64,000 bases of DNA from Escherichia phage phiAPCEc03, in the sequence record NC_047754.1. One strand, 5' to 3'. Positions 51,985 through 62,520 of this stretch are shown here, piece after piece. The translations under genes were made by a program, and so were the position numbers. Under the pieces are notes generated by a model. It worked only from the letters and a program-made list of their open reading frames with translations. It was not told the origin of the DNA and made no database searches. Within the stretch, counting starts at the first letter, position 1; the number at the start of each line of letters is the position of its first letter.

Positions 51985-52413
51985 TTAAGCAGTTAAACCT
52001 GGGATCATATACCCGAAACGTCGAAGTTTCTGAATCCCCTCATCTACTTCTTCCGGTGAGTAAGACCAACCATAACGTTCATTAACCTGAAAACCAGGAG
52101 ATTCACTAGTTTTATAGTTAACAACGAGGCGATGCTTAGCAGGCATAAACAGCTTATAGTTTAACGCAAAAACTAAGCCCATTTCATCTAACTCTTTCCA
52201 GCCGACAATCTCTTCAAGACCCTCCTCTACCTGAACAATTAAACCAATACAGGGGGCCTCATCAATATCATCTTTAAAAGCAAAGGAGATTTCGTTATTC
52301 TCACACCATATTTTCAAAGAGTTAATAGCCTCATTATACAGGCTAGCTGGGAGAGTACGCCAAAAGTTAACCAAAATTGGGTTAGCTTCTTTAGAGAATA
52401 CATTATTGAACAT
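51985..52413 (-). CDS. hypothetical protein, tandem paralog A
   Basis: 142 aa; see paralog B. Confidence 0.5.
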   Translation of the reverse strand: MFNNVFSKEANPILVNFWRTLPASLYNEAINSLKIWCENNEISFAFKDDIDEAPCIGLIVQVEEGLEEIVGWKELDEMGLVFALNYKLFMPAKHRLVVNYKTSESPGFQVNERYGWSYSPEEVDEGIQKLRRFGYMIPGLTA

Positions 52414-52415
52414 AT

Positions 52416-52955
52416 TTACACCTTAAATTGTTGCAAGGATTTACACATTTCAAGATCTGGGCTAAATTCTAGCATATAGCTAACAGCTTTTAAATCTTGA
52501 AGATTTATCCCAGTCCTACCGTTGACTATAACCGTTGGATACTGATACATCATAGCACCCGCATCATCAAGCACACACCAATGTTTGAGCTTATGCTTTT
52601 CAACGAAGCGAAGAACAGAATTACCCCTAGATAATCCACCACCAGTAAAATCCGTTGTACCAAGAAAACGATCGATAAGACCTAATCCGGTCATAATCTG
52701 AACGTTCTCCATCTCATTTCTGACAGAAAACCAAGATGATACTCCGACAATCATTATCGGAGAAGGACGAATAAAGTCCTGAAAAGCCTTGAGAAGCGGT
52801 TTGAAAACCCAGTCACTTCCAAAGAAAATCTTTTCATCATCAGGTGCATGATGGTGGGAGATGCTCGAATTGAGCACCCCATCAATGTCTAGAAAAATAA
52901 TTGGAGTATTACTTATTTCCACCAGTAGCATCCCACGTCCAGACTTTAACTTCAT
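52416..52955 (-). CDS. HAD-superfamily phosphatase-like protein
   Basis: 179 aa; motif I FLDIDGVL near N-terminus; downstream VLDDAG-type acidic motif. Confidence 0.6.
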   Translation of the reverse strand: MKLKSGRGMLLVEISNTPIIFLDIDGVLNSSISHHHAPDDEKIFFGSDWVFKPLLKAFQDFIRPSPIMIVGVSSWFSVRNEMENVQIMTGLGLIDRFLGTTDFTGGGLSRGNSVLRFVEKHKLKHWCVLDDAGAMMYQYPTVIVNGRTGINLQDLKAVSYMLEFSPDLEMCKSLQQFKV

Positions 52956-53094
52956 CAGTAAAAGGAACCGGAACCTTCAATTCACCCTTACCCCACATAA
53001 CAGACAGGAACAGAGAATAAATGGTAATCATACCAATTAGGTTGACAAACCATACTAGACCTTTCCAGATACCCTTAAAAATCTTCTTTATCAT
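52909..53094 (-). CDS. small membrane protein
   Basis: 61 aa; hydrophobic helix LVWFVNLIGMITIYSLFLSVMW; start overlaps stop of upstream small ORF (ATGA). Confidence 0.4.
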   Translation of the reverse strand: MIKKIFKGIWKGLVWFVNLIGMITIYSLFLSVMWGKGELKVPVPFTDEVKVWTWDATGGNK

Positions 53095-53261
53095 TCGTTC
53101 TCCTCTAGGAACGTATCATACTCAACCGTATCAACATATATGACACCATAGTCATCGGATTTATAGTCCATTTCCCACAGCTCACAGCGATAGCACCAAC
53201 TACCATCCGCCCATACAAATATATCATCGGGATGTGTATACACAGATTTAACTATGGACAT
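53091..53261 (-). CDS. small hypothetical protein (56 aa), paralog of 53252..53437
   Basis: Hand translation MSIVKSVYTHPDDIFVWADGSWCYRCELWEMDYKSDDYGVIYVDTVEYDTFLEENE; shares D-IF-x-GSWCYR motif with neighbour; below ORF-track cutoff. Confidence 0.35.
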   Translation of the reverse strand: MSIVKSVYTHPDDIFVWADGSWCYRCELWEMDYKSDDYGVIYVDTVEYDTFLEENE

Positions 53262-53437
53262 ATCTGTTTCCCCTCATCTCCAGAGGATAACCATATGTTC
53301 TCTGTAGTATAGATAATTTTATATGTGTTGCCCAACCTTTCTTTAACATTAGGAAATCTATAGGCAAACCTATAACACCACGTGCCAGACTCAGTTATAA
53401 AAATATCCCATTCATTATTTCTTGCTTCCCGACACAT
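53252..53437 (-). CDS. small hypothetical protein
   Basis: 61 aa; EWDIFITESGTWCYRF motif shared with 53091..53261. Confidence 0.35.
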   Translation of the reverse strand: MCREARNNEWDIFITESGTWCYRFAYRFPNVKERLGNTYKIIYTTENIWLSSGDEGKQICP

Positions 53438-54233
53438 AAGGTCTACCCTCTAAATGAGCTTCTACACGAGCAATAAAATCAGGATCACTGAAAGCATCTA
53501 CCGCACCTTTACTCCAGTAAGGGATACCGCGTTCTTCCAGCTGGTACATCTCACTACGAGTCATACCTTGATAGCCCGGTTCCGCCGCTAGGGCACTATC
53601 ATAGTAGTTAACAACCATTAGCTTGGCAGCAGTCAAATTAAGAACAGGAAATAATTCCCAGTAGAAGTTAATTACTTGGTTAGAGCAACCAATCACAACG
53701 ATCATATCTTGACTGGTAATACCATCAAAAACATTGTACATTTCTGCGTATGCAGGAGCATGCTCTCCAAAGAAGATTACATTAGGTTTAACCCATTTAT
53801 AATCATCTGGATCAATAGAATTATATCCTACATCAATAATCCGTTTATTACTACTACTGTAGCTATCCGCTACAACAACCTCTTTTAAGTATCCATGAAT
53901 GTGCAGAATGTCACTATGTGGAACTCCAGCACGCTCAATAAGGTCATCAACGTTGGTAGTCAAGTTTACTATTTGACCGGGATATTGTTTATACCATTCG
54001 CCAATACGCAAATGCGCAAGATTGGGTTCAACAGTTTTTAGCTCTTCACGACGCTTGTTGTAAAACATATGGGTTTTATGATAAAAATTACCACGAAAGG
54101 CATGAATATTACATACTTCTTCTAGATCATAATCATCCCACAGTGCTTTACCACTAGCAGTATCAGTACGGAAGGCTCGTACACCACTTTCAACACTCAA
54201 ACCTGCACCGCTAATAATAATTAATCTACGCAT
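53415..54233 (-). CDS. Sir2-family (sirtuin-like) NAD-dependent protein, zinc-ribbon-less
   Basis: 272 aa; sirtuin signature motifs GAGLSVESGVRAFR (cf. GAGISxxSGIPxFR), TTNVDDL (cf. TQNID), HIHG catalytic His, NVIFFGE, VIGCS; no CxxC...CxxC zinc module between HG and FFGE. Confidence 0.7.
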   Translation of the reverse strand: MRRLIIISGAGLSVESGVRAFRTDTASGKALWDDYDLEEVCNIHAFRGNFYHKTHMFYNKRREELKTVEPNLAHLRIGEWYKQYPGQIVNLTTNVDDLIERAGVPHSDILHIHGYLKEVVVADSYSSSNKRIIDVGYNSIDPDDYKWVKPNVIFFGEHAPAYAEMYNVFDGITSQDMIVVIGCSNQVINFYWELFPVLNLTAAKLMVVNYYDSALAAEPGYQGMTRSEMYQLEERGIPYWSKGAVDAFSDPDFIARVEAHLEGRPYVSGSKK

Positions 54234-54447: not shown

Positions 54448-54619
54448 ACAGTTTCTCCTCTAGTTCCATAACACGATTTTCATAAGAGGCACGCAACTTT
54501 TCAATTGCCAGCGCACGCACTGTAACCTCATTAGAATTAATAGCTAATTGGGCCAGATCTTCTGTTTCCATACGTCCGTTGTAAATTAAGCGATATTTAA
54601 GATGTTTTACGTTTTTCAT
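54416..54619 (-). CDS. hypothetical protein
   Basis: 67 aa ORF. Confidence 0.35.
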   Translation of the reverse strand: MKNVKHLKYRLIYNGRMETEDLAQLAINSNEVTVRALAIEKLRASYENRVMELEEKLYGILEADATR

Positions 54620-54990
54620 ACTTTTAGCTCCGCTCCAATATCCTCATAGAAGTAATCGTAGTAAACCTGCTTAATATGATGTTTAATAACAGAAGAGAAA
54701 TCCTCTGTGCCGTTAGAGGTAACATTAAATACTTGTAAGTGGTTCCAATATACAAATTCTAGAGTCTCTTTTAAGTCTTCAGGTTCTTCATATATAGGAT
54801 TATAGACAGTAATATCTAATTCTTGCTCTACGAAGTCACCTAGTAATGTAGGATATCCAATACCTCCTAGCAATGAGTAATCACCTGTAGCAGCAAAAAT
54901 AGCTTCCTGAATAGTATCTACTCCTAAGTGATAATGTCCTAACTTAGATACAACAATAAATGGTTTTAGGTCCATATACCCTCCTCTCAA
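54616..54990 (-). CDS. hypothetical protein
   Basis: 124 aa acidic ORF with SD GAGAGGAGGG and upstream promoter. Confidence 0.45.
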   Translation of the reverse strand: MRGGYMDLKPFIVVSKLGHYHLGVDTIQEAIFAATGDYSLLGGIGYPTLLGDFVEQELDITVYNPIYEEPEDLKETLEFVYWNHLQVFNVTSNGTEDFSSVIKHHIKQVYYDYFYEDIGAELKV

Positions 54991-55031: not shown

Positions 55032-55066
55032 ATAAAATAAAAGCCAGGTCGACTAGCAACCCGGCT
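55032..55066 (-). terminator. intrinsic terminator after nrdD
   Basis: Minus-strand hairpin AGCCGGG-ttgctagtcga-CCTGGCT followed by TTTTATTTTATTT. Confidence 0.6.
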
Positions 55067-55073
55067 GATTAGC

Positions 55074-56948
55074 TTATTTAGCTCGAATATCCTGATGCTT
55101 CACTCTGCCCATCACCTCGTGCTGTTTGCCGGGGTTAAATGGACGAGCACCCGGATTTCCAAGATACCCACAAACTCTACGAGTTACTTCAAGAGTTTCG
55201 GGGTCATGATTACCACAGATAGGGCACTTAAATCCATCTTCGGATGCTATTGTTTCACCTAAGAATCCACATTTACCACAAGAATCCACTGGAGTATTAA
55301 TACCGAAGTAATGAACCTTACTAGCAGCATAATTAATAACCCATTCCAGTGCATCTGGGAATCGTTTCATATCCGGTAGTTCTACATAGGAAATGCACCC
55401 ACCAGAAGCAATCGGAGTAAAGTTAGATTCATAATCAAATTTTACGTTAGGAGCAACTTTACGTTCCACATCAAGGTGATGAGAGTTAGTGTAGTATCCT
55501 TTGGACAGAATATCTTCATGCTCCGAGAAATATTCACGGTCTAGACGACAAAAACGGTCACATAGGGATTCTGATGGTGTAGCATACAGGCTATAACCTA
55601 ACTTAGTTTCTTCCTTCTTCTGATCGACTCTATCCCGCATGTACTGCAATACACGCTGAACAAACTTGATGCAGGTCTCGGACATTGTGTCTACATCTTT
55701 GCCAAACATGAACTGTAGCATTTCATGGCAACCAATATACCCTAGAGATACAGAAGCACGGTTATAGAAGTGATCGAATACATATTCATCAGGCTCCAAG
55801 CGCAGTCCAAAGGCTCCTGACATATAGAGGATGGGCGCAGCTTTAGCTTGAATGTATTTTAAGCGATCAACTCTCCACTCCAATGCTTTTAACGCTGTAT
55901 CCACACGTAGCTCAAGCAAATCAAAGAATAGATCAATATTTCCTTCAGCTTCGATAGCAATTCTAGGCAAGTTTACAGAAACAACACCTAAGTTATTACG
56001 ACCGGCAGTTTCACCATCTTCTGTAGCAGCTAGGAATGAACGGCAGCCCATAGAAACTTTATAGTCGCCAGTAACTTCCACAACCTTGTCATAGCTGATA
56101 TAATCTGGATACATACGTTCAGACGTACATTTCATAGCTAACTTCTTGATGTCATAATTAACATCTCCTGGTTTCATGTTAACGCCATCACGAAGCACAA
56201 ATACTAGTTTCGGGAAGATAGCTGTACGTTTATTGATACCTAAACCATCCATACGTACTTTTAGTATTGCTTTCTGTACTAGACGTGCCTCCCAAGAAGT
56301 TCCTAGACCAAAACCAAAGGTAATAAATGGACTCTGACCATTAGAGTTGAACATGGTATTGATTTCATATTCTAAACCCTGACAAGCGTCATAGACTTCT
56401 TTCTCAGTCATCTCCGTAGCCATTACGGATGCTTTGGCTTCATCCTTAGTCCAACGTTTTGCAAACGCATGATTTTTGTCATAGGATTTACGAACATAAG
56501 GGGCTAATACTTCATCAAGGCGGTCTACAGAAGTACCACCATACTGATGGGAGCTAACTTGAGTGATAATCTGAGCAGTAATAGCCGCCGCAGTAGTGAT
56601 AGAGTTTGGAGTGCTAATTTCAGCATTACCAACCTTCATACCATTCTTCAACATATCTTCCAGAGCTACCAGACAACAGTTAGTCATGCCTAATGCAGCA
56701 TAATCAGCATCATGGAAATGAATATCCCCAATCATATGAGCATTTCGAATCTGAATTGGCATTTCTTCTAGAATCAGATACTTACTCAATTCACCTGCAA
56801 GCATATCCCTTTGTGTAGGGAAACGTTCTGAGGGTTTATTGGCATTATTAAACAGCAGCTCTTCATCTGCTGACCCTTCGATAATCTCTTTGCAGTTTCT
56901 AATTAACGCCTGCATTTCTTTATACTTTAGTTCTTCATTGCGATTCAT
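55074..56948 (-). CDS. nrdD: anaerobic ribonucleoside-triphosphate reductase (class III, NrdD)
   Basis: 624 aa; C-terminal CPICGNHD zinc ribbon and glycyl-radical motif RVCGYLG; SD GAAGGAGAG. Confidence 0.85.
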   Translation of the reverse strand: MNRNEELKYKEMQALIRNCKEIIEGSADEELLFNNANKPSERFPTQRDMLAGELSKYLILEEMPIQIRNAHMIGDIHFHDADYAALGMTNCCLVALEDMLKNGMKVGNAEISTPNSITTAAAITAQIITQVSSHQYGGTSVDRLDEVLAPYVRKSYDKNHAFAKRWTKDEAKASVMATEMTEKEVYDACQGLEYEINTMFNSNGQSPFITFGFGLGTSWEARLVQKAILKVRMDGLGINKRTAIFPKLVFVLRDGVNMKPGDVNYDIKKLAMKCTSERMYPDYISYDKVVEVTGDYKVSMGCRSFLAATEDGETAGRNNLGVVSVNLPRIAIEAEGNIDLFFDLLELRVDTALKALEWRVDRLKYIQAKAAPILYMSGAFGLRLEPDEYVFDHFYNRASVSLGYIGCHEMLQFMFGKDVDTMSETCIKFVQRVLQYMRDRVDQKKEETKLGYSLYATPSESLCDRFCRLDREYFSEHEDILSKGYYTNSHHLDVERKVAPNVKFDYESNFTPIASGGCISYVELPDMKRFPDALEWVINYAASKVHYFGINTPVDSCGKCGFLGETIASEDGFKCPICGNHDPETLEVTRRVCGYLGNPGARPFNPGKQHEVMGRVKHQDIRAK

Positions 56949-56977: not shown

Positions 56978-57006
56978 ATTATAACTCATTCGAGGGCGGA
57001 TGTCAA
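56978..57006 (-). promoter_or_regulatory. sigma70 promoter for nrdD (-35 TTGACA, 17 nt, -10 TATAAT)
   Basis: Perfect consensus hexamers on minus strand with 17 nt spacer. Confidence 0.65.
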
Positions 57007-57227: not shown

Positions 57228-57300
57228 ATATTTGTAAGTTGATAAACAAGATCTTTTTGTTGATCCTCTGTTAGCGAAGTACACTATAGGAGTGTTATTT

Positions 57301-58053
57301 ATGGGAAAAGCACGTCAAAAAAGAGAGAACCGCAATGGTTCAAGAAAGCGTGGCAACAAATATGAGAACAACGTAATTCAGGCTGATTTTTCTAATGATT
57401 ACGCTAATCCAGTTGCTAAATCCCTAGTAGGTAAAAACCGCGAGCAAAAATCATATATCAATATGATCAAGAACAACACAGTGACCGTGGGTATCGGTGA
57501 GCCGGGTACTGGTAAAACCTTTATTCCGTCCGTTCTTGCAGCTCAGGAACTCGTAGACATTCACTCAGATATTGAGCAAGTGATTCTCGTACGTCCTAAT
57601 GAACCTCTAGGTAAGTCTCTTGGTATGCTTCCTGGTGATCTAGCGGAAAAGCTAGAGCCTTGGTTGGAGCCAATAGCTGATGGTATGAAATGGGCCATCG
57701 GCGATCATGCATATAAAGGATATGTCGAACGTCAGAAAATTAAATTTTTGGCTGTCGAACATGCTCGTGGCAGAACTTTCAACAACTCCTATGTAATTGT
57801 CGATGAAGCTCAGAATATTTCCGTTGAGGCAATGATTTGTCTCCTAACTCGTGTAGGACAAGACTGCCGTTTAATTATCTGCGGAGATATAGCTCAGAAA
57901 GACATTAAAGGTGACTCAGGTCTAGCACTCCTTATGGAAGTCTATGAAAAATACGAAAATGCCCCATTCTCAATGATCGAATTGGTTGATAACGTTCGTT
58001 CTGTTGAGTCTAAAGCATTCTATGATATTTTTAAAGACATGGGGAAGGTGTAA
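57301..58053 (+). CDS. phoH: PhoH-like ATPase
   Basis: Walker A GEPGTGKT, Walker B VIVDEAQN; ATG at 57301 with TAGGAG SD preferred over GTG at 57292 used by ORF track. Confidence 0.85.
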   Translation: MGKARQKRENRNGSRKRGNKYENNVIQADFSNDYANPVAKSLVGKNREQKSYINMIKNNTVTVGIGEPGTGKTFIPSVLAAQELVDIHSDIEQVILVRPNEPLGKSLGMLPGDLAEKLEPWLEPIADGMKWAIGDHAYKGYVERQKIKFLAVEHARGRTFNNSYVIVDEAQNISVEAMICLLTRVGQDCRLIICGDIAQKDIKGDSGLALLMEVYEKYENAPFSMIELVDNVRSVESKAFYDIFKDMGKV

Positions 58054-58054
58054 T

Positions 58055-58276
58055 ATGGGAAACGTCGTTCATCTGAGCCGTAAAACTAAAATACATCGTA
58101 CCTCACTGAGTGCTGCTAATATGATTACACGTAAAGAAGGGGAAGAAAGTCCTAAGACAACCCTAGCGTGGAAAATTGTAACCTCAAATCCAAATAAACC
58201 ATTCAATTATAACGAGCTGAGCACCTCTATAGATATTCTATTAAAAGAAGTAGCTAGAGCTAAAGTAATTGAATAA
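58055..58276 (+). CDS. hypothetical small protein
   Basis: ATG at 58055 directly after phoH stop (TAATATG); ORF track's longer version (57986) overlaps phoH; 73 aa. Confidence 0.4.
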   Translation: MGNVVHLSRKTKIHRTSLSAANMITRKEGEESPKTTLAWKIVTSNPNKPFNYNELSTSIDILLKEVARAKVIE

Positions 58277-58304: not shown

Positions 58305-58336
58305 GGCCTGGGTATGAAAATACTCGGGCCTTTTCT
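58305..58336 (+). terminator. intrinsic terminator
   Basis: Hairpin GGCCTGGGTAT-gaaa-ATACTCGGGCC (with G-U pairs) followed by TTTTCT. Confidence 0.5.
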
Positions 58337-58351
58337 ATCAGAAAATTTTAT

Positions 58352-58380
58352 TTGCCTAATGACCAATAATAATGTAGAAT
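58352..58380 (+). promoter_or_regulatory. sigma70 promoter for nrdA (-35 TTGCCT, 17 nt, -10 TAGAAT)
   Basis: TTGCCT-aatgaccaataataatg-TAGAAT. Confidence 0.5.
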
Positions 58381-58418
58381 ATTCCTTAAATCCTGATAAC
58401 TATAAAAAGGAAAGCCAA

Positions 58419-60749
58419 ATGAGCCATCGCATTGAAAAAGTAATTAAACGTGACGGTACTGTAGAAGACTTTGCTCCTGAAAAACTCAATGGTTGGGCAG
58501 AGTATGGTTGCAAAACAGTTGATGTAAGTTGGTCAGCCATTACTATGGCTGCTCAAAAAACTCTGCCTAAAGGGGTTGTAGATTCCGACACTCTGATGGA
58601 TGCATTAATTAAAGCTGCTGAAAGTCTTATTAAAGATAATCCAGCATACGATGTGCCAGCAAAGGAATTACGTCTTGCGCAAATGCGTAAGCGCCTTTAT
58701 GACTCTTTCGAACCACCTTCTCTACGCTTCTTCCATGATCATATGGTTAGTGTAGGTGCATGGGAAGACATGAGTGCATGGATTACCGATGAGCAGTTTG
58801 AGGCTTTGAATCAGGTTATTGACCATGATCGTGACCGTCTTTTCACTAGTGGAGGACTGAAACAATTCTTTGATAAGTATTCTCGCCGTAATATAGCAAC
58901 TGGAGAAATTTACGAAACTCCGCAATTCGCCTATATGGGTATGGCAATGGCGATGTTATCTCAACCTAACTGGACAATTCTAGATGCAATCGACCTCTAC
59001 AATGCAATGTCGCTCCACAAAATCAACGTTCCTACGCCGCCATTGGTTGGCTTGCGCTCTAGTGATCGTGGATTTGCTAGTTGTTGCCTCGTTGATTCCA
59101 CTGACACATTGGATTCAATCGACACGGCCGAACACATCGTCTTCAAAATGGTTGCAGCCAGAGCGGGAATCGGGTATCATCTTGAAAGCCGATCAATTGC
59201 TGATCCGGTGCGAAATGGGGCATTCCCGCATTCCGGAAAACTGCCATATTATCGACACATTGACCGCTCAGTAAAGGCCAATACTCAGCAAACTCGTGGT
59301 GGTTCTGCTACAGTGTCTTATCCATACTTTGATCCTGAGATCATTCAATTGATGCAGGTTAAGCAACAACGTGCTACAGATGAGAATAAAATCGATAAGA
59401 TGGATTATTCTCTGAGCTTCAACAATCTTTTACTAAAACGTTATCTGAAAAATGAAGATATTACGCTAATGTCATACTTCTATGCTCCAGAAGTTCATGA
59501 AGCGTTTTATAGTGATGACGAGGCTAAATTTGAAGAAATCTATGTGGCAGCGGAGAAACGTGTGGCATCTCTTACAAAGATCGACCACGAAGGAAAAACA
59601 GTTCCAGCAGCTCCTAAAGTCTCTGCAAAAGAAATCCTAGATACTTGGCTACGTATCCGCATGGAAACAGGACGTATGTATGCACACCACATTGCAGAAT
59701 CTAATCGTCATGGTAACTTCCTTGACCAGATTCGTATGACTAACCTTTGTGTTGAAATTACTCAACCTACACGTCCATTCCATCACATTACAGAACTGTA
59801 TAAGACAAAAGAGCAGCTTGATCAAATGAAGCCGGAGGATATTGGTGAAGTATCTCTGTGTAACTTAGGGGGTGTTGTACTTGGACGCATGGAATCTCTG
59901 GCTGAGTGGGAAAAAACTTGCTACATCCTTCTGAAATTCGTTGATACAATTATCGAAATTCAGGATTATCCGTTCCCAACTATGGAATATACGGCTAAGA
60001 AACGTCGTAATGTTGGTATTGGCCTAATGAACGCAGCAGGTGCAATGGCCGCAGAAGGTCTGGCTTATGAAGGTATTGAAGCCCGTAACTGGATTCACCG
60101 TGAGGCTGAAAAACTGTCCTACTTCCTGCATAAAGCCTCTGTACGCCTAGCTAAAGAACAGGGTGCATGTGAGTGGTTCGATCGTACTAAACCATCTAAA
60201 GGAATTCTGGTAATCGACACGTACAAGAAAACTGTTGATGAACTGGTATCCGTAGGTCTAGAAATGGATTGGGAGTCTCTACGTGCAGATATTTTGAAAT
60301 ATGGTATGCGTAACTCTGTTCTGACTGCTCAGATGCCGGGAGAAAGTTCTTCTGTTCTGTTAGGTGTTACTAACTCTATCGAACCACCACGTAAGATTGT
60401 ATCTATCAAGGGTAGTGCAGTGAATAAAGTAATTGCAATTGCTCCAGGTGCAACCGATTGGGAAACGTTAATGAGCTATAAACTGGCTTATGATGTAGAT
60501 CGTATCGAGTGGATCAAATGGGTAGCAACTATGCAGAAATTCTTCAGTCAGTCTATCAGTACGAATATGTACTATGACTACACCAAGTTTGAGAATGAAA
60601 TCATTCCTGGCCCAGTAGTAGTTCGTGATTTCATGACTGCTGTTAAGTATGGGTGGAAAACTTGGTATTATGCTAACTTCAACACTGCAAATGGTGGAGG
60701 TGCTGGAGAAGAAGCAGCCGGTTGTGCATCCGGTGGTTGTACTATTTAA
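58419..60749 (+). CDS. nrdA: ribonucleoside-diphosphate reductase large subunit (class Ia NrdA)
   Basis: ATP-cone start MSHRIEKVIKRDGTVEDF at ATG 58419 with SD AAAGGAAAG (ORF track start 58314 is upstream and unlikely); C-terminal tail Cys pair ...GCASGGCTI. Confidence 0.85.
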   Translation: MSHRIEKVIKRDGTVEDFAPEKLNGWAEYGCKTVDVSWSAITMAAQKTLPKGVVDSDTLMDALIKAAESLIKDNPAYDVPAKELRLAQMRKRLYDSFEPPSLRFFHDHMVSVGAWEDMSAWITDEQFEALNQVIDHDRDRLFTSGGLKQFFDKYSRRNIATGEIYETPQFAYMGMAMAMLSQPNWTILDAIDLYNAMSLHKINVPTPPLVGLRSSDRGFASCCLVDSTDTLDSIDTAEHIVFKMVAARAGIGYHLESRSIADPVRNGAFPHSGKLPYYRHIDRSVKANTQQTRGGSATVSYPYFDPEIIQLMQVKQQRATDENKIDKMDYSLSFNNLLLKRYLKNEDITLMSYFYAPEVHEAFYSDDEAKFEEIYVAAEKRVASLTKIDHEGKTVPAAPKVSAKEILDTWLRIRMETGRMYAHHIAESNRHGNFLDQIRMTNLCVEITQPTRPFHHITELYKTKEQLDQMKPEDIGEVSLCNLGGVVLGRMESLAEWEKTCYILLKFVDTIIEIQDYPFPTMEYTAKKRRNVGIGLMNAAGAMAAEGLAYEGIEARNWIHREAEKLSYFLHKASVRLAKEQGACEWFDRTKPSKGILVIDTYKKTVDELVSVGLEMDWESLRADILKYGMRNSVLTAQMPGESSSVLLGVTNSIEPPRKIVSIKGSAVNKVIAIAPGATDWETLMSYKLAYDVDRIEWIKWVATMQKFFSQSISTNMYYDYTKFENEIIPGPVVVRDFMTAVKYGWKTWYYANFNTANGGGAGEEAAGCASGGCTI

Positions 60750-60850: not shown

Positions 60851-61366
60851 TTGATAACACAAGATGAATTAAAAAGGATTCTGGAGTATAATCCAGATGA
60901 AGGAACATTTACTTGGTTAAATAACCAAGAAGTACACAATAAAGTAAGAGGACTACCTGCTGGTTGTTTAAAACCACACTCAGTAGACCCTAACCGAAAA
61001 GACTTAGTGATACAAATCAAGGGTAAGAAGTACCCTGCACAAAATATTGCTTTCCTGTACATGACAGGAAACTTACCTAAAGTTATGGTTGACCATATAG
61101 ATGGAGATTCACTAAACTATAAGTGGACTAACCTAAGAGAAGCAGACTGGCAGTTAAATAGTCAAAATAGAAAAACCAGTAAAAACAATATATTGGGTAC
61201 TAAGAATATTCGGAAGAAAGGGTCTGGATTTCAAGTTAGAAAATCTATTAACGGAAAAGAATACGTGAAAACTCTTCCAACTCTAGAAGAGGCAATAGAG
61301 TATCGAGATTCTTTAATCCTCTCTATAACCAAAGATCCAACACTACTTAGAAACACAGATAAATAG
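60851..61366 (+). CDS. HNH-AP2 homing endonuclease inserted between nrdA and nrdB
   Basis: 171 aa; HNH core VDHIDGDSLNYKWTNLREADWQLNSQN, AP2-like SGFQVRKSINGKEYVKTLPTLEEAIEYRD; N-terminus MITQDELKRILEYNPDEGTF parallels the 40340 ORF. Confidence 0.75.
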   Translation: MITQDELKRILEYNPDEGTFTWLNNQEVHNKVRGLPAGCLKPHSVDPNRKDLVIQIKGKKYPAQNIAFLYMTGNLPKVMVDHIDGDSLNYKWTNLREADWQLNSQNRKTSKNNILGTKNIRKKGSGFQVRKSINGKEYVKTLPTLEEAIEYRDSLILSITKDPTLLRNTDK

Positions 61367-61374
61367 GAGAACTA

Positions 61375-62520
61375 ATGACAACTTTACTTAACTTAAACTG
61401 GGATCATACCAATAAAGATCTATTTCTCGGTGATTCTCTTGGTATTGCAGATTATGTACGAGTAGCCCATCCAGAGCTGGAAAGGCTGGCGTTATTAGCT
61501 CGCTCTCAATTTTGGACTGAAACTGAAATCAGTCTGGAAGCAGATAAGAAACAATGGCCCAACCTCCCACGTGAAATTCAGGAAATTACACTCCTGAACT
61601 TAGCATGGCAGACCCAAACAGATTCTTTCATTAGTCGCGCACCTGAAGCAGCTATTATGCCGCTTGTAAGCCGCCCTGAACTGGAAGGAATGCTAAAACA
61701 GTGGAGCTACTTCGAAGACCTGCATAGCCGTGCGTATAGCAACATTATCCGTAATGTGCTGACTGATCCGGCAGAATTTATTGATTCTGTAACTAAAAAC
61801 CAAGAAGCATTTGCACGTATCGCAGATTCTGTTGAACTGTTTGATGAACTGTACCAGTTAGGTCAGTATTTCATTGCAGTACGTGATCATCGTGGTGACA
61901 ATACATATCCAGAAACTGAGTTCCCTGAAGTTAAGCGTGAAACTCAGGCTAAACTGTTAGATGCTTATTTTGCAATCTACGGTCTGGAAGCAATGCAGTT
62001 CTACGCATCCTTTGCATGTACCTTTGCGTTAGCAGAGAACGATATTCTGCAAGGTATTGCTAAAAATCTGCAATTGATTGCTAAAGATGAAGCCCTACAT
62101 ACTCAGATGTCTAAAACAATCATCCAGATTATGTTCCAGCAGTTTGACAAAGATCTGGTAGATGAAGCAGTGGCTAAAGCACCAGCACAGCTCCTGAAAA
62201 CTCTGAAAACTGAAATTGAATGGGGTCATTTCATTTTCAAAGGTCGTAGTCTGATTGGCTTGAATGCAGAACTTCTAGAAGAATATCTGTACTTTGTGGG
62301 GCGCAATGCATTTATGCACATCGGTGTAGAATGGCCAAGTAATCTGCCGGTAATCACCAAAAACCCTATTCCGTGGATCATGAACTGGTTGGATACTACT
62401 TCTCTACAGCCTGCTCCGCAAGAAATCCAGATTGGTGCAGCTTACCGTGTAGGTCAGGTAACTGAGACCTCTACTGATACTCTGAAAGATCTGGGTAATG
62501 AATTTGGAGATTTCTTATGA
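61375..62520 (+). CDS. nrdB: ribonucleoside-diphosphate reductase small subunit (class Ia NrdB)
   Basis: 381 aa; ferritin-like di-iron protein with EALH-type ligand motifs; adjacent to nrdA. Confidence 0.8.
   Translation: MTTLLNLNWDHTNKDLFLGDSLGIADYVRVAHPELERLALLARSQFWTETEISLEADKKQWPNLPREIQEITLLNLAWQTQTDSFISRAPEAAIMPLVSRPELEGMLKQWSYFEDLHSRAYSNIIRNVLTDPAEFIDSVTKNQEAFARIADSVELFDELYQLGQYFIAVRDHRGDNTYPETEFPEVKRETQAKLLDAYFAIYGLEAMQFYASFACTFALAENDILQGIAKNLQLIAKDEALHTQMSKTIIQIMFQQFDKDLVDEAVAKAPAQLLKTLKTEIEWGHFIFKGRSLIGLNAELLEEYLYFVGRNAFMHIGVEWPSNLPVITKNPIPWIMNWLDTTSLQPAPQEIQIGAAYRVGQVTETSTDTLKDLGNEFGDFL

What the first reader, a model, noticed from the sequence alone, without database searches (positions are those of the whole stretch)
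55074..56948. Class III ribonucleotide reductase without an adjacent activase gene
nrdD encodes a glycyl-radical enzyme that needs a radical-SAM activase (NrdG). No ORF near it has a CxxxCxxC motif; the neighbouring 124 aa protein contains no cysteine at all. The phage may rely on host NrdG or encode the activase elsewhere. Class Ia nrdAB is also present, suggesting replication under both aerobic and anaerobic (gut) conditions.
Basis: partly seen in the sequence, partly recalled or inferred. Interest (0 to 1): 0.4.

Follow-up and report, generated by a model that had tools for sequence, protein, structure and literature searches.

The report
Phage anaerobic ribonucleotide reductase without activase
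A T5-like phage carries an intact, strongly conserved gene for the oxygen-sensitive (class III) ribonucleotide reductase but no gene for the enzyme that switches it on, so it almost certainly borrows the host's; this arrangement is real but already documented for T5 and its relatives.

Summary
Window 55074-56948 (-) encodes a 624-aa NrdD. All catalytic residues are intact, and the gene has its own consensus promoter and terminator. Neither the 64-kb window nor the rest of two related genomes (T5 and Salmonella phage X5) contains an NrdG homologue or a credible radical-SAM protein. Class Ia nrdA and nrdB lie next door.

The window is a Tequintavirus (T5-like, Demerecviridae). nrdD is under very strong purifying selection (dN/dS 0.013-0.020), so it is in use. 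The best explanation is that the host's pre-made NrdG activates the phage enzyme. That step is inferred, not shown.

The pattern is already published. Dwivedi et al. 2013 state that many phages carry nrdD plus nrdAB without nrdG, and they discuss the RNR locus of T5, SPC35 and EPS7. RNRdb lists 30 phage NrdD against 21 NrdG.

- About 58 Vibrio-infecting Demerecviridae records do carry nrdG in the same gene module, while I found no enterobacterial T5-like that does.
- About 630 phage records in the collection have NrdD without a detectable NrdG.
- The T5 RefSeq nrdD has a 150-bp in-frame deletion.

Verdict: real, ordinary, already known.

The parts
55074..56948 (-). nrdD: class III (anaerobic) ribonucleoside-triphosphate reductase catalytic subunit, 624 aa, without an N-terminal ATP-cone
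   Evidence: ORF. Pfam NRDD 4e-172. NCBIfam PRK09263 844 bits. 54% identical to E. coli NrdD residues 113-705. PDB matches 9d3x and 1h78 (T4 NrdD).
55152..55466 (-). C-terminal glycyl-radical domain (aa 495-599). Gly594 sits in RRVCGYLG at 55167-55169.
   Evidence: Pfam Gly_radical 9e-23. Gly594 aligns with T4 Gly580. Coordinates verified.
55215..55280 (-). Cys4 zinc ribbon (C557, C560, C575, C578)
   Evidence: Aligns with T4 C543/C546/C561/C564. Sequence CGKCGFLGETIASEDGFKCPIC.
56043..56045 (-). Cys302, the thiyl-radical cysteine on the finger loop (GCRSF)
   Evidence: Aligns with T4 Cys290 and E. coli Cys384. Verified.
56676..56678 (-). Cys91, the second active-site cysteine
   Evidence: Aligns with T4 Cys79 and E. 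coli Cys175. Verified.
56978..57006 (-). Consensus sigma-70 promoter of nrdD (TTGACA-17-TATAAT, 12 of 12), followed by an AGGAG ribosome-binding site
   Evidence: sequence. T5 annotation places a promoter at the equivalent spot.
55042..55066 (-). Intrinsic terminator directly after nrdD (10-bp stem plus T-run). It makes nrdD a one-gene transcription unit.
   Evidence: The same feature is annotated in T5, T5 ATCC and HdH2.
54616..54990 (-). 124-aa ORF downstream of nrdD. It has no cysteine, its function is unknown, and it is not an activase.
   Evidence: phrog_11748, unknown function. No Pfam or NCBIfam hit. Cys count 0. No homologue next to nrdD in Proteus PM135 or Klebsiella vB_Kpn24-P3.
57292..58053 (+). 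phoH-like ATPase, transcribed divergently from nrdD
   Evidence: Pfam PhoH 2.9e-61. [quoted passage not shown]
58314..60749 (+). nrdA, class Ia RNR large subunit (the real start is probably the Met at 58419)
   Evidence: Pfam Ribonuc_red_lgC 3.3e-119 and lgN 8.6e-12.
60851..61366 (+). Free-standing HNH homing endonuclease between nrdA and nrdB
   Evidence: Pfam HNH_3 1.3e-07. Counterpart of T5 hegH.
61375..62520 (+). nrdB, class Ia RNR small subunit
   Evidence: Pfam Ribonuc_red_sm 2.5e-36.

Best explanation
The gene is a functional class III ribonucleotide reductase catalytic subunit (NrdD) of a T5-like phage.

Expression: it is transcribed on its own from a strong early promoter.

Likely role: the ATP-cone is missing, so like T4 NrdD the enzyme probably escapes dATP feedback inhibition. 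It would supply dNTPs when oxygen is absent and the phage's class Ia NrdAB cannot form its tyrosyl radical.

Activation: the phage encodes no activase. The glycyl radical at Gly594 is most likely installed by host NrdG already present in anaerobically grown E. coli or Salmonella, using SAM and reduced flavodoxin. An activase acts catalytically, so a small host pool could serve a large amount of phage NrdD.

Reductant: by homology to the E. coli/T4 subtype, the reductant should be formate.

Shown here: gene identity, intact catalytic residues, purifying selection, and absence of a phage activase. Inferred: activation by host NrdG, formate use, and loss of dATP regulation.
For: - Identity and intactness: domain hits. 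C91, C302, N319, E460, the Cys4 ribbon and G594 all align with the T4 and E. coli catalytic residues.
- The gene is in use: dN/dS is 0.013 against SPC35 and 0.020 against T5, with dS up to 0.33. 382 phage records encode an NrdD at least 95% identical in protein, although the DNA of this region diverges to 80-90% in many records. The gene has a 12/12 promoter and its own terminator.
- No phage activase. The collection-wide chimera tblastn gave 3140 records and 3206 places, against 2273 and 2277 for NrdG alone. The roughly 62 surplus places match the 58 Vibrio-phage records whose NrdG is at least 60% identical to JSF10's.
- Host has the activase: nrdG lies next to nrdD in E. coli K-12.
- Compatibility hint: the window NrdD is less like E. 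coli NrdD than T4 NrdD is in the core (54% versus 61%). It is more like it in the Zn-ribbon plus Gly domain (64% versus 48%) and around the Gly loop (74% versus 53%). T4 brings its own NrdG.
- Literature: the nrdD-only plus nrdAB pattern is described in PMC3653736, which also discusses the T5/SPC35/EPS7 RNR locus.
Against: - There is no experimental evidence, here or in the papers searched, that E. coli NrdG activates a T5-type NrdD.
- From memory only (Young et al. 1994, J Biol Chem; not retrievable here): T4 NrdD needed its own NrdG when expressed in E. coli. Cross-activation therefore cannot be assumed.
- The C-terminal similarity argument is weak. JSF10 NrdD, which has its own NrdG, is even more host-like in that region, and the counts are small.
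- T5 shuts off host gene expression early (A1 annotation), so only pre-existing NrdG would be available.
- The part of this phage's own genome outside the window could not be read. Its content is inferred from T5 and X5.
Confidence: 0.75

Rival explanations
1. The activase is encoded by the phage, in the roughly 50 kb of its genome that lies outside the window.
For: The window covers only about 64 kb of a roughly 110-120 kb genome. About 58 Vibrio-infecting Demerecviridae records do carry nrdG, and in JSF10 it sits between nrdA and phoH.
Against: T5 and X5 (NrdD 99.8% identical, intact) have no NrdG by tblastn or profile HMM outside the window-equivalent region. The only CxxxCxxC in an annotated T5 gene is in T5.055, a protein of about 100 aa. 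It has no radical-SAM hit, and its first Cys is not conserved in a homologue. The chimera search leaves at most about 4 unexplained records among roughly 870 capsid-bearing relatives.
Confidence: 0.04
2. A different host glycyl-radical activase, such as PflA, activates the phage NrdD instead of NrdG.
For: PflA is abundant in anaerobic E. coli. T5 also carries a GrcA-like stand-alone glycyl-radical protein (T5.056), which by homology would depend on PflA. NrdG and PflA are detectably related.
Against: The Gly-loop sequence RRVCGYLG is identical to that of E. coli NrdD. From general knowledge, not tested here: the PFL loop is RVSGYAV, and these activases are normally substrate-specific.
Confidence: 0.08
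3. The gene is dispensable baggage or an inactive relic that is never activated.
For: T5 RefSeq carries a 150-bp in-frame deletion that removes a conserved core motif. HdH2 has a 97-nt insertion that splits the ORF. Loss is therefore tolerated in laboratory propagation.
Against: dN/dS is 0.013-0.020. All catalytic residues are kept. The gene is intact in T5 ATCC 11303-B5, SPC35, phiLLS and X5 and in all the T5-like rows sampled. The two lesions look recent and strain-specific.
Confidence: 0.08
4. An unrecognised phage protein, unrelated to radical-SAM activases, installs or transfers the radical.
For: Many early genes of unknown function surround nrdD. No search can exclude an unknown fold.
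Against: No such mechanism is known for any glycyl-radical enzyme. The small ORFs next to nrdD are not conserved alongside the nrdG-less nrdD in Proteus PM135 or Klebsiella vB_Kpn24-P3. None has an Fe-S motif.
Confidence: 0.03

Closest known systems
nrdD of phage T5 and its relatives SPC35 and EPS7 (Tequintavirus/Markadamsvirinae), as catalogued by Dwivedi et al. 2013 (PMC3653736)
   Same: Same gene in the same context: nrdD divergent from phoH-nrdA-(HNH)-nrdB-frd-thy, with no nrdG. Window region 39001-64000 is about 94-96% identical in DNA to T5 and relatives. SPC35 NrdD differs at only about 2 nonsynonymous sites.
   Different: Nothing essential. The T5 RefSeq allele has a 50-aa internal deletion that the window lacks.
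Phage T4 NrdD/NrdG (solved structure 1h78)
   Same: A phage class III RNR without an ATP-cone. All catalytic residues are shared, identity is 49%, and it co-occurs with phage class Ia NrdAB.
   Different: T4 encodes its own activase NrdG just downstream of nrdD, separated only by mobC, and its nrdD carries a group I intron. The T4 C-terminal Gly domain is less host-like than the window's.
E. coli NrdD-NrdG operon
   Same: 54% identity over the catalytic region. The Gly-loop motif RRVCGYLG is identical. The window protein passes the same NCBIfam equivalog.
   Different: E. coli NrdD has an N-terminal ATP-cone of about 90 aa and a co-transcribed nrdG. The phage gene has neither.
Vibrio-infecting Demerecviridae (JSF10, JSF12, phi 3, pVp-1, Ceto, Thalassa and others)
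   Same: Same virus family (capsid protein 55% identical) and the same nucleotide-metabolism module containing nrdD, nrdA, nrdB and phoH.
   Different: They carry nrdG; in JSF10 it lies between nrdA and phoH. JSF10 NrdD keeps the ATP-cone, and its gene is split by an intervening ORF that looks like a homing endonuclease.

Membership tests
Class III ribonucleotide reductase catalytic subunit (NrdD) | NRDD barrel domain recognised by curated family models above their cut-offs | tested here: met
   Pfam PF13597 574 bits (cut-off 26). NCBIfam PRK09263 844 bits (cut-off 657) and TIGR02487 585 bits (cut-off 326).
Class III ribonucleotide reductase catalytic subunit (NrdD) | C-terminal glycyl-radical motif RVxGY with the radical glycine | tested here: met
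   RRVCGYLG with Gly594 aligned to T4 Gly580. Pfam Gly_radical 9e-23.
Class III ribonucleotide reductase catalytic subunit (NrdD) | Active-site cysteines and Asn (T4 C79, C290, N311) and the Cys4 zinc ribbon | tested here: met
   C91, C302, N319 and C557/C560/C575/C578 are all conserved.
Class III ribonucleotide reductase catalytic subunit (NrdD) | Radical installed by a radical-SAM activase; enzyme is oxygen-sensitive; NTP reduction with formate | not testable with these tools
   Biochemical properties. Inferred from 54% identity to E. coli NrdD only.
NrdG / glycyl-radical-enzyme activase (radical SAM) encoded by the phage | Protein with a CxxxCxxC [4Fe-4S] motif and a Fer4_12/Radical_SAM domain | tested here: not met
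   None found in the window, in T5 outside the window's span, or in the arms of X5. Positive controls scored 1e-84 and 1e-90.
NrdG / glycyl-radical-enzyme activase (radical SAM) encoded by the phage | Gene adjacent to or co-transcribed with nrdD | tested here: not met
   nrdD has its own promoter and terminator. The downstream ORFs of 124, 67 and 73 aa contain 0, 0 and 1 Cys and match no family.
Phages with nrdD plus nrdAB but no nrdG (Dwivedi et al. 2013) | [quoted passage not shown] | tested here: met
   Gene map. The description in PMC3653736 matches exactly.

The most novel reading that the evidence does not exclude
Enterobacterial T5-like phages might activate their NrdD through something other than host NrdG. 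One possibility is an unrecognised phage-encoded factor. Another is a radical relay involving the phage GrcA-like protein and host PflA. Either would be a new route to a glycyl radical.
Probability: 0.03. Interest if true: 0.7.

Novelty: already known. Interest (0 to 1): 0.15.

Why it matters
The finding matters little beyond confirmation.

It shows that a large, well-sampled phage group keeps a glycyl-radical enzyme under tight selection while leaving its activation to the host. About 540 collection records carry this NrdD type, counting those at least 60% identical in protein.

This makes host nrdG a predicted anaerobic host-dependency factor for T5-like phages. That prediction is relevant to phage therapy or biocontrol in the gut and could be tested with a simple mutant experiment.

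The contrast with the Vibrio-infecting branch of the same family, which does carry nrdG, offers a natural comparison. It could show when a phage can afford to leave activation to its host.

Tried and rejected
- T5.055 (L001 27263-27574) is the only annotated T5 gene with a CxxxCxxC motif, and it sits next to a GrcA-like gene. I rejected it as an activase. It is about 100 aa, has no radical-SAM or other family hit and belongs to phrog_4499 of unknown function. Its homologues occur in jumbo Erwinia and Rhizobium phages next to tRNA or RNA-repair genes. The first Cys of the motif is absent in the Rhizobium homologue; the invariant pattern is C-x-C-x2-C.
- I looked for a decayed nrdG between phoH and nrdA, where JSF10 has its nrdG. 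The ORF there is DUF7430, and no tblastn signal appears.
- SPC35_0091, a 93-aa ORF just downstream of nrdD in SPC35, gave a weak hit to my three-sequence NrdG profile (E 0.026, 10 bits, profile positions 56-109). It has no Pfam hit even at E up to 10, no cluster motif, and no blastp similarity to the window's 124-aa ORF at the equivalent position. I treat it as chance.
- FNR-box search upstream of nrdD: 57 matches in the window against 60 expected by chance. The one nearby site has 2 mismatches and lies about 70 bp upstream of the predicted transcription start, in front of a promoter that is already consensus. This gives no evidence for oxygen regulation.
- The small ORFs downstream of nrdD were considered as conserved partners of the nrdG-less NrdD. 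They are not conserved in Proteus PM135 or Klebsiella vB_Kpn24-P3.
- Literature searches for experimental cross-activation of a phage NrdD by host NrdG, or for T5 anaerobic growth data, found nothing.
- Whether the T5 lineage lost nrdG or never had it could not be settled. Window, T4, JSF10 and E. coli NrdD are all roughly 49-59% identical to each other, which resolves no branching order, and I built no tree.

Full report
**What the window is.** The window is part of a T5-like phage genome (genus Tequintavirus, family Demerecviridae). Region 39001-64000 is 94-96% identical to T5 and its relatives and carries nrdA, nrdB, nrdD, helicase and origin-binding genes. Region 1-25000 holds head and tail genes. 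The window corresponds roughly to T5 positions 47-111 kb, in reverse orientation.

**The observation.** The ORF at 55074-56948 (-) encodes 624 aa.
- It matches Pfam NRDD (4e-172) and Gly_radical (9e-23). It passes the NCBIfam equivalogs for anaerobic ribonucleoside-triphosphate reductase, at 844 bits against a 657-bit cut-off.
- Its closest solved structures are class III reductases, including T4 NrdD.
- It is 54% identical to E. coli NrdD residues 113-705 and lacks the N-terminal ATP-cone, as T4 NrdD does.
- Every residue I could map from T4 is kept: C91, C302, N319, E460, the Cys4 ribbon (C557/C560/C575/C578) and the radical glycine G594 in RRVCGYLG.
- The 124-aa neighbour has no cysteine.
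- nrdA and nrdB are confirmed at 58314-60749 and 61375-62520, with an HNH endonuclease gene between them.

**Is there an activase?** I found none.
- No CxxxCxxC lies in any credible ORF of the window. That is weak evidence alone, because chance would give almost none anyway.
- tblastn with E. coli, T4 and JSF10 NrdG finds only noise in the window and in T5 1-50000, with best E values of 0.65 to 3.7.
- A profile HMM built from those three NrdG sequences was run against every six-frame ORF of at least 40 aa in the window and in T5 1-62000 and 104000-121750. The best E was 1, while it recovered T4 and JSF10 NrdG at 1e-84 and 1e-90.
- T5 RefSeq turned out to carry a damaged nrdD, so I repeated the test on Salmonella phage X5, whose NrdD is intact and 99.8% identical to the window's. 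Its arms outside the window-equivalent region (1-50000 and 104000-118240) have no NrdG either; the best E was 0.43.
- nrdD is a one-gene unit. It has a perfect TTGACA-17-TATAAT promoter at 57006-56978 and a 10-bp-stem terminator at 55066-55042. Nothing is co-transcribed with it.

**Collection-wide picture.**
- tblastn finds NrdD in 2907 phage records and NrdG in 2273. About 630 records therefore have NrdD without a detectable NrdG.
- The T5-type NrdD accounts for 390 records at 80% protein identity or more, and another 147 at 60-80%, for example Proteus PM135 and the Klebsiella T5-likes.
- To ask whether any capsid-bearing relative also has NrdG, I searched with a chimeric query made of the window's major capsid protein plus E. 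coli NrdG. This gave 3140 records and 3206 places. NrdG alone gives 2273 records and 2277 places. The surplus is about 62 places.
- That surplus matches the 58 Vibrio-phage records whose NrdG is at least 60% identical to that of JSF10: JSF10, JSF12, phi 3, pVp-1, Ceto, Thalassa and others. I did not run the capsid protein alone, so this count is approximate.
- JSF10 is a Demerecviridae member (subfamily Ermolyevavirinae). Its gene order is nrdD (split, with ATP-cone) - methyltransferase - nrdB - nrdA - nrdG - phoH.
- Activase carriage therefore varies within the family. It is confined to the Vibrio-infecting branch. The enterobacterial, Proteus and Klebsiella branches checked lack it.

**Is the nrdG-less gene in use?** Yes, by sequence evidence.
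- dN/dS is 0.013 against SPC35 and 0.020 against T5, with dS reaching 0.33.
- 382 records keep at least 95% protein identity, even though the DNA of this region drifts to 80-90% in many records.
- Two lesions exist, and both look recent and strain-specific. T5 RefSeq lacks 150 bp between two TCGATCA repeats, which removes aa 394-443, but T5 ATCC 11303-B5 has the full gene. HdH2 has a 97-nt inverted duplication in the same stretch that splits the ORF.

**Mechanism.** The best-supported explanation is that phage NrdD is activated by host NrdG made before infection.
- E. coli carries nrdG next to nrdD.
- A mild supporting signal comes from comparison with E. coli NrdD. The window protein is less conserved than T4 NrdD in the core (54% versus 61%). 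It is more conserved in the Zn-ribbon and glycyl domain that must enter the activase (64% versus 48%; Gly loop 74% versus 53%). JSF10 NrdD, which has its own activase, is also host-like there, so the signal does not discriminate.
- No NrdG structure exists in the PDB copy searched to map an interface.
- From memory only (Young et al. 1994, J Biol Chem): T4 NrdD required its own NrdG in E. coli, so cross-activation cannot be taken for granted.
- Formate as reductant and loss of dATP inhibition are inferred from homology and from the missing ATP-cone.

**Known or new?** Known. Dwivedi et al. [quoted passage not shown] RNRdb (2009) lists 30 phage NrdD against 21 NrdG (PMC2795772). The dependence on host NrdG has not, as far as the searchable literature shows, been tested experimentally. 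That remains a small open question.

**Verdict.** The feature is ordinary for this phage group and already described.

Noticed in passing
L005 3961-5685 (T5 NC_005859 53961-55685); corresponds to window 55620-55769: The T5 RefSeq nrdD is only 574 aa. A 150-bp in-frame deletion between two 7-bp direct repeats (TCGATCA) removes window NrdD residues 394-443, including the conserved RASVSLGYIGCHE motif. T5 ATCC 11303-B5 (AY587007) has the intact 1875-nt gene, so the lesion is a stock-specific mutation or an assembly error.
   Followed up: yes
L010 673-2644 (phage HdH2 NC_048748); insertion after window nrdD CDS nt 1193: In HdH2, nrdD is annotated as two CDS. A 97-nt insertion that is an inverted copy of the next ~90 nt breaks the frame. 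It falls inside the same 150-nt stretch that is deleted in T5 RefSeq, which suggests a rearrangement hotspot or an assembly artefact.
   Followed up: partly
L001 27656-28024 and 27263-27574 (T5.056 and T5.055; outside the window): T5 encodes a second glycyl-radical protein, a 122-aa GrcA/YfiD-like 'spare part' (Pfam Gly_radical 3.6e-18), also without an activase. Its neighbour T5.055 is a small basic Cys-rich protein whose CxxxCxxC spacing is not conserved in homologues.
   Followed up: partly
L003 25476-33216 (Vibrio phage JSF10): This member of the same virus family carries nrdG between nrdA and phoH. Its NrdD keeps the ATP-cone and is split into two ORFs by an intervening 165-aa ORF that looks like a homing endonuclease. 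About 58 Vibrio-phage records share this NrdG type.
   Followed up: partly
window 60851-61366; L011 2709-3200 (phiLLS): Free-standing HNH endonuclease genes populate the RNR module at variable positions. In the window and T5 the gene lies between nrdA and nrdB; in phiLLS it lies between nrdD and phoH.
   Followed up: no
window 58056-58276 (within ORF 57986-58276): The 73-aa ORF between phoH and nrdA is a DUF7430 protein (5.6e-40). Several RefSeq records label it 'tail length tape measure protein', which is evidently a propagated misannotation.
   Followed up: no
window 51985-54233: Downstream of nrdD lie a Sir2-family gene (53415-54233), a HAD_SAK_2 phosphatase-like gene (52416-52955) and a DUF7415 gene (51985-52413). 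Sir2 and DUF7415 stay syntenic with nrdD in Proteus PM135 and Klebsiella T5-likes, whereas the three small ORFs directly after nrdD do not.
   Followed up: partly
L006 8667-8948 (SPC35_0091): A 93-aa ORF directly downstream of nrdD in SPC35 shows a faint match (E 0.026, 10 bits) to the middle of a three-sequence NrdG profile ('GKDKWLWIDY' against 'GKDIWVWTGY'). It has no Pfam support and is probably chance, but it sits where nrdG would normally be.
   Followed up: partly
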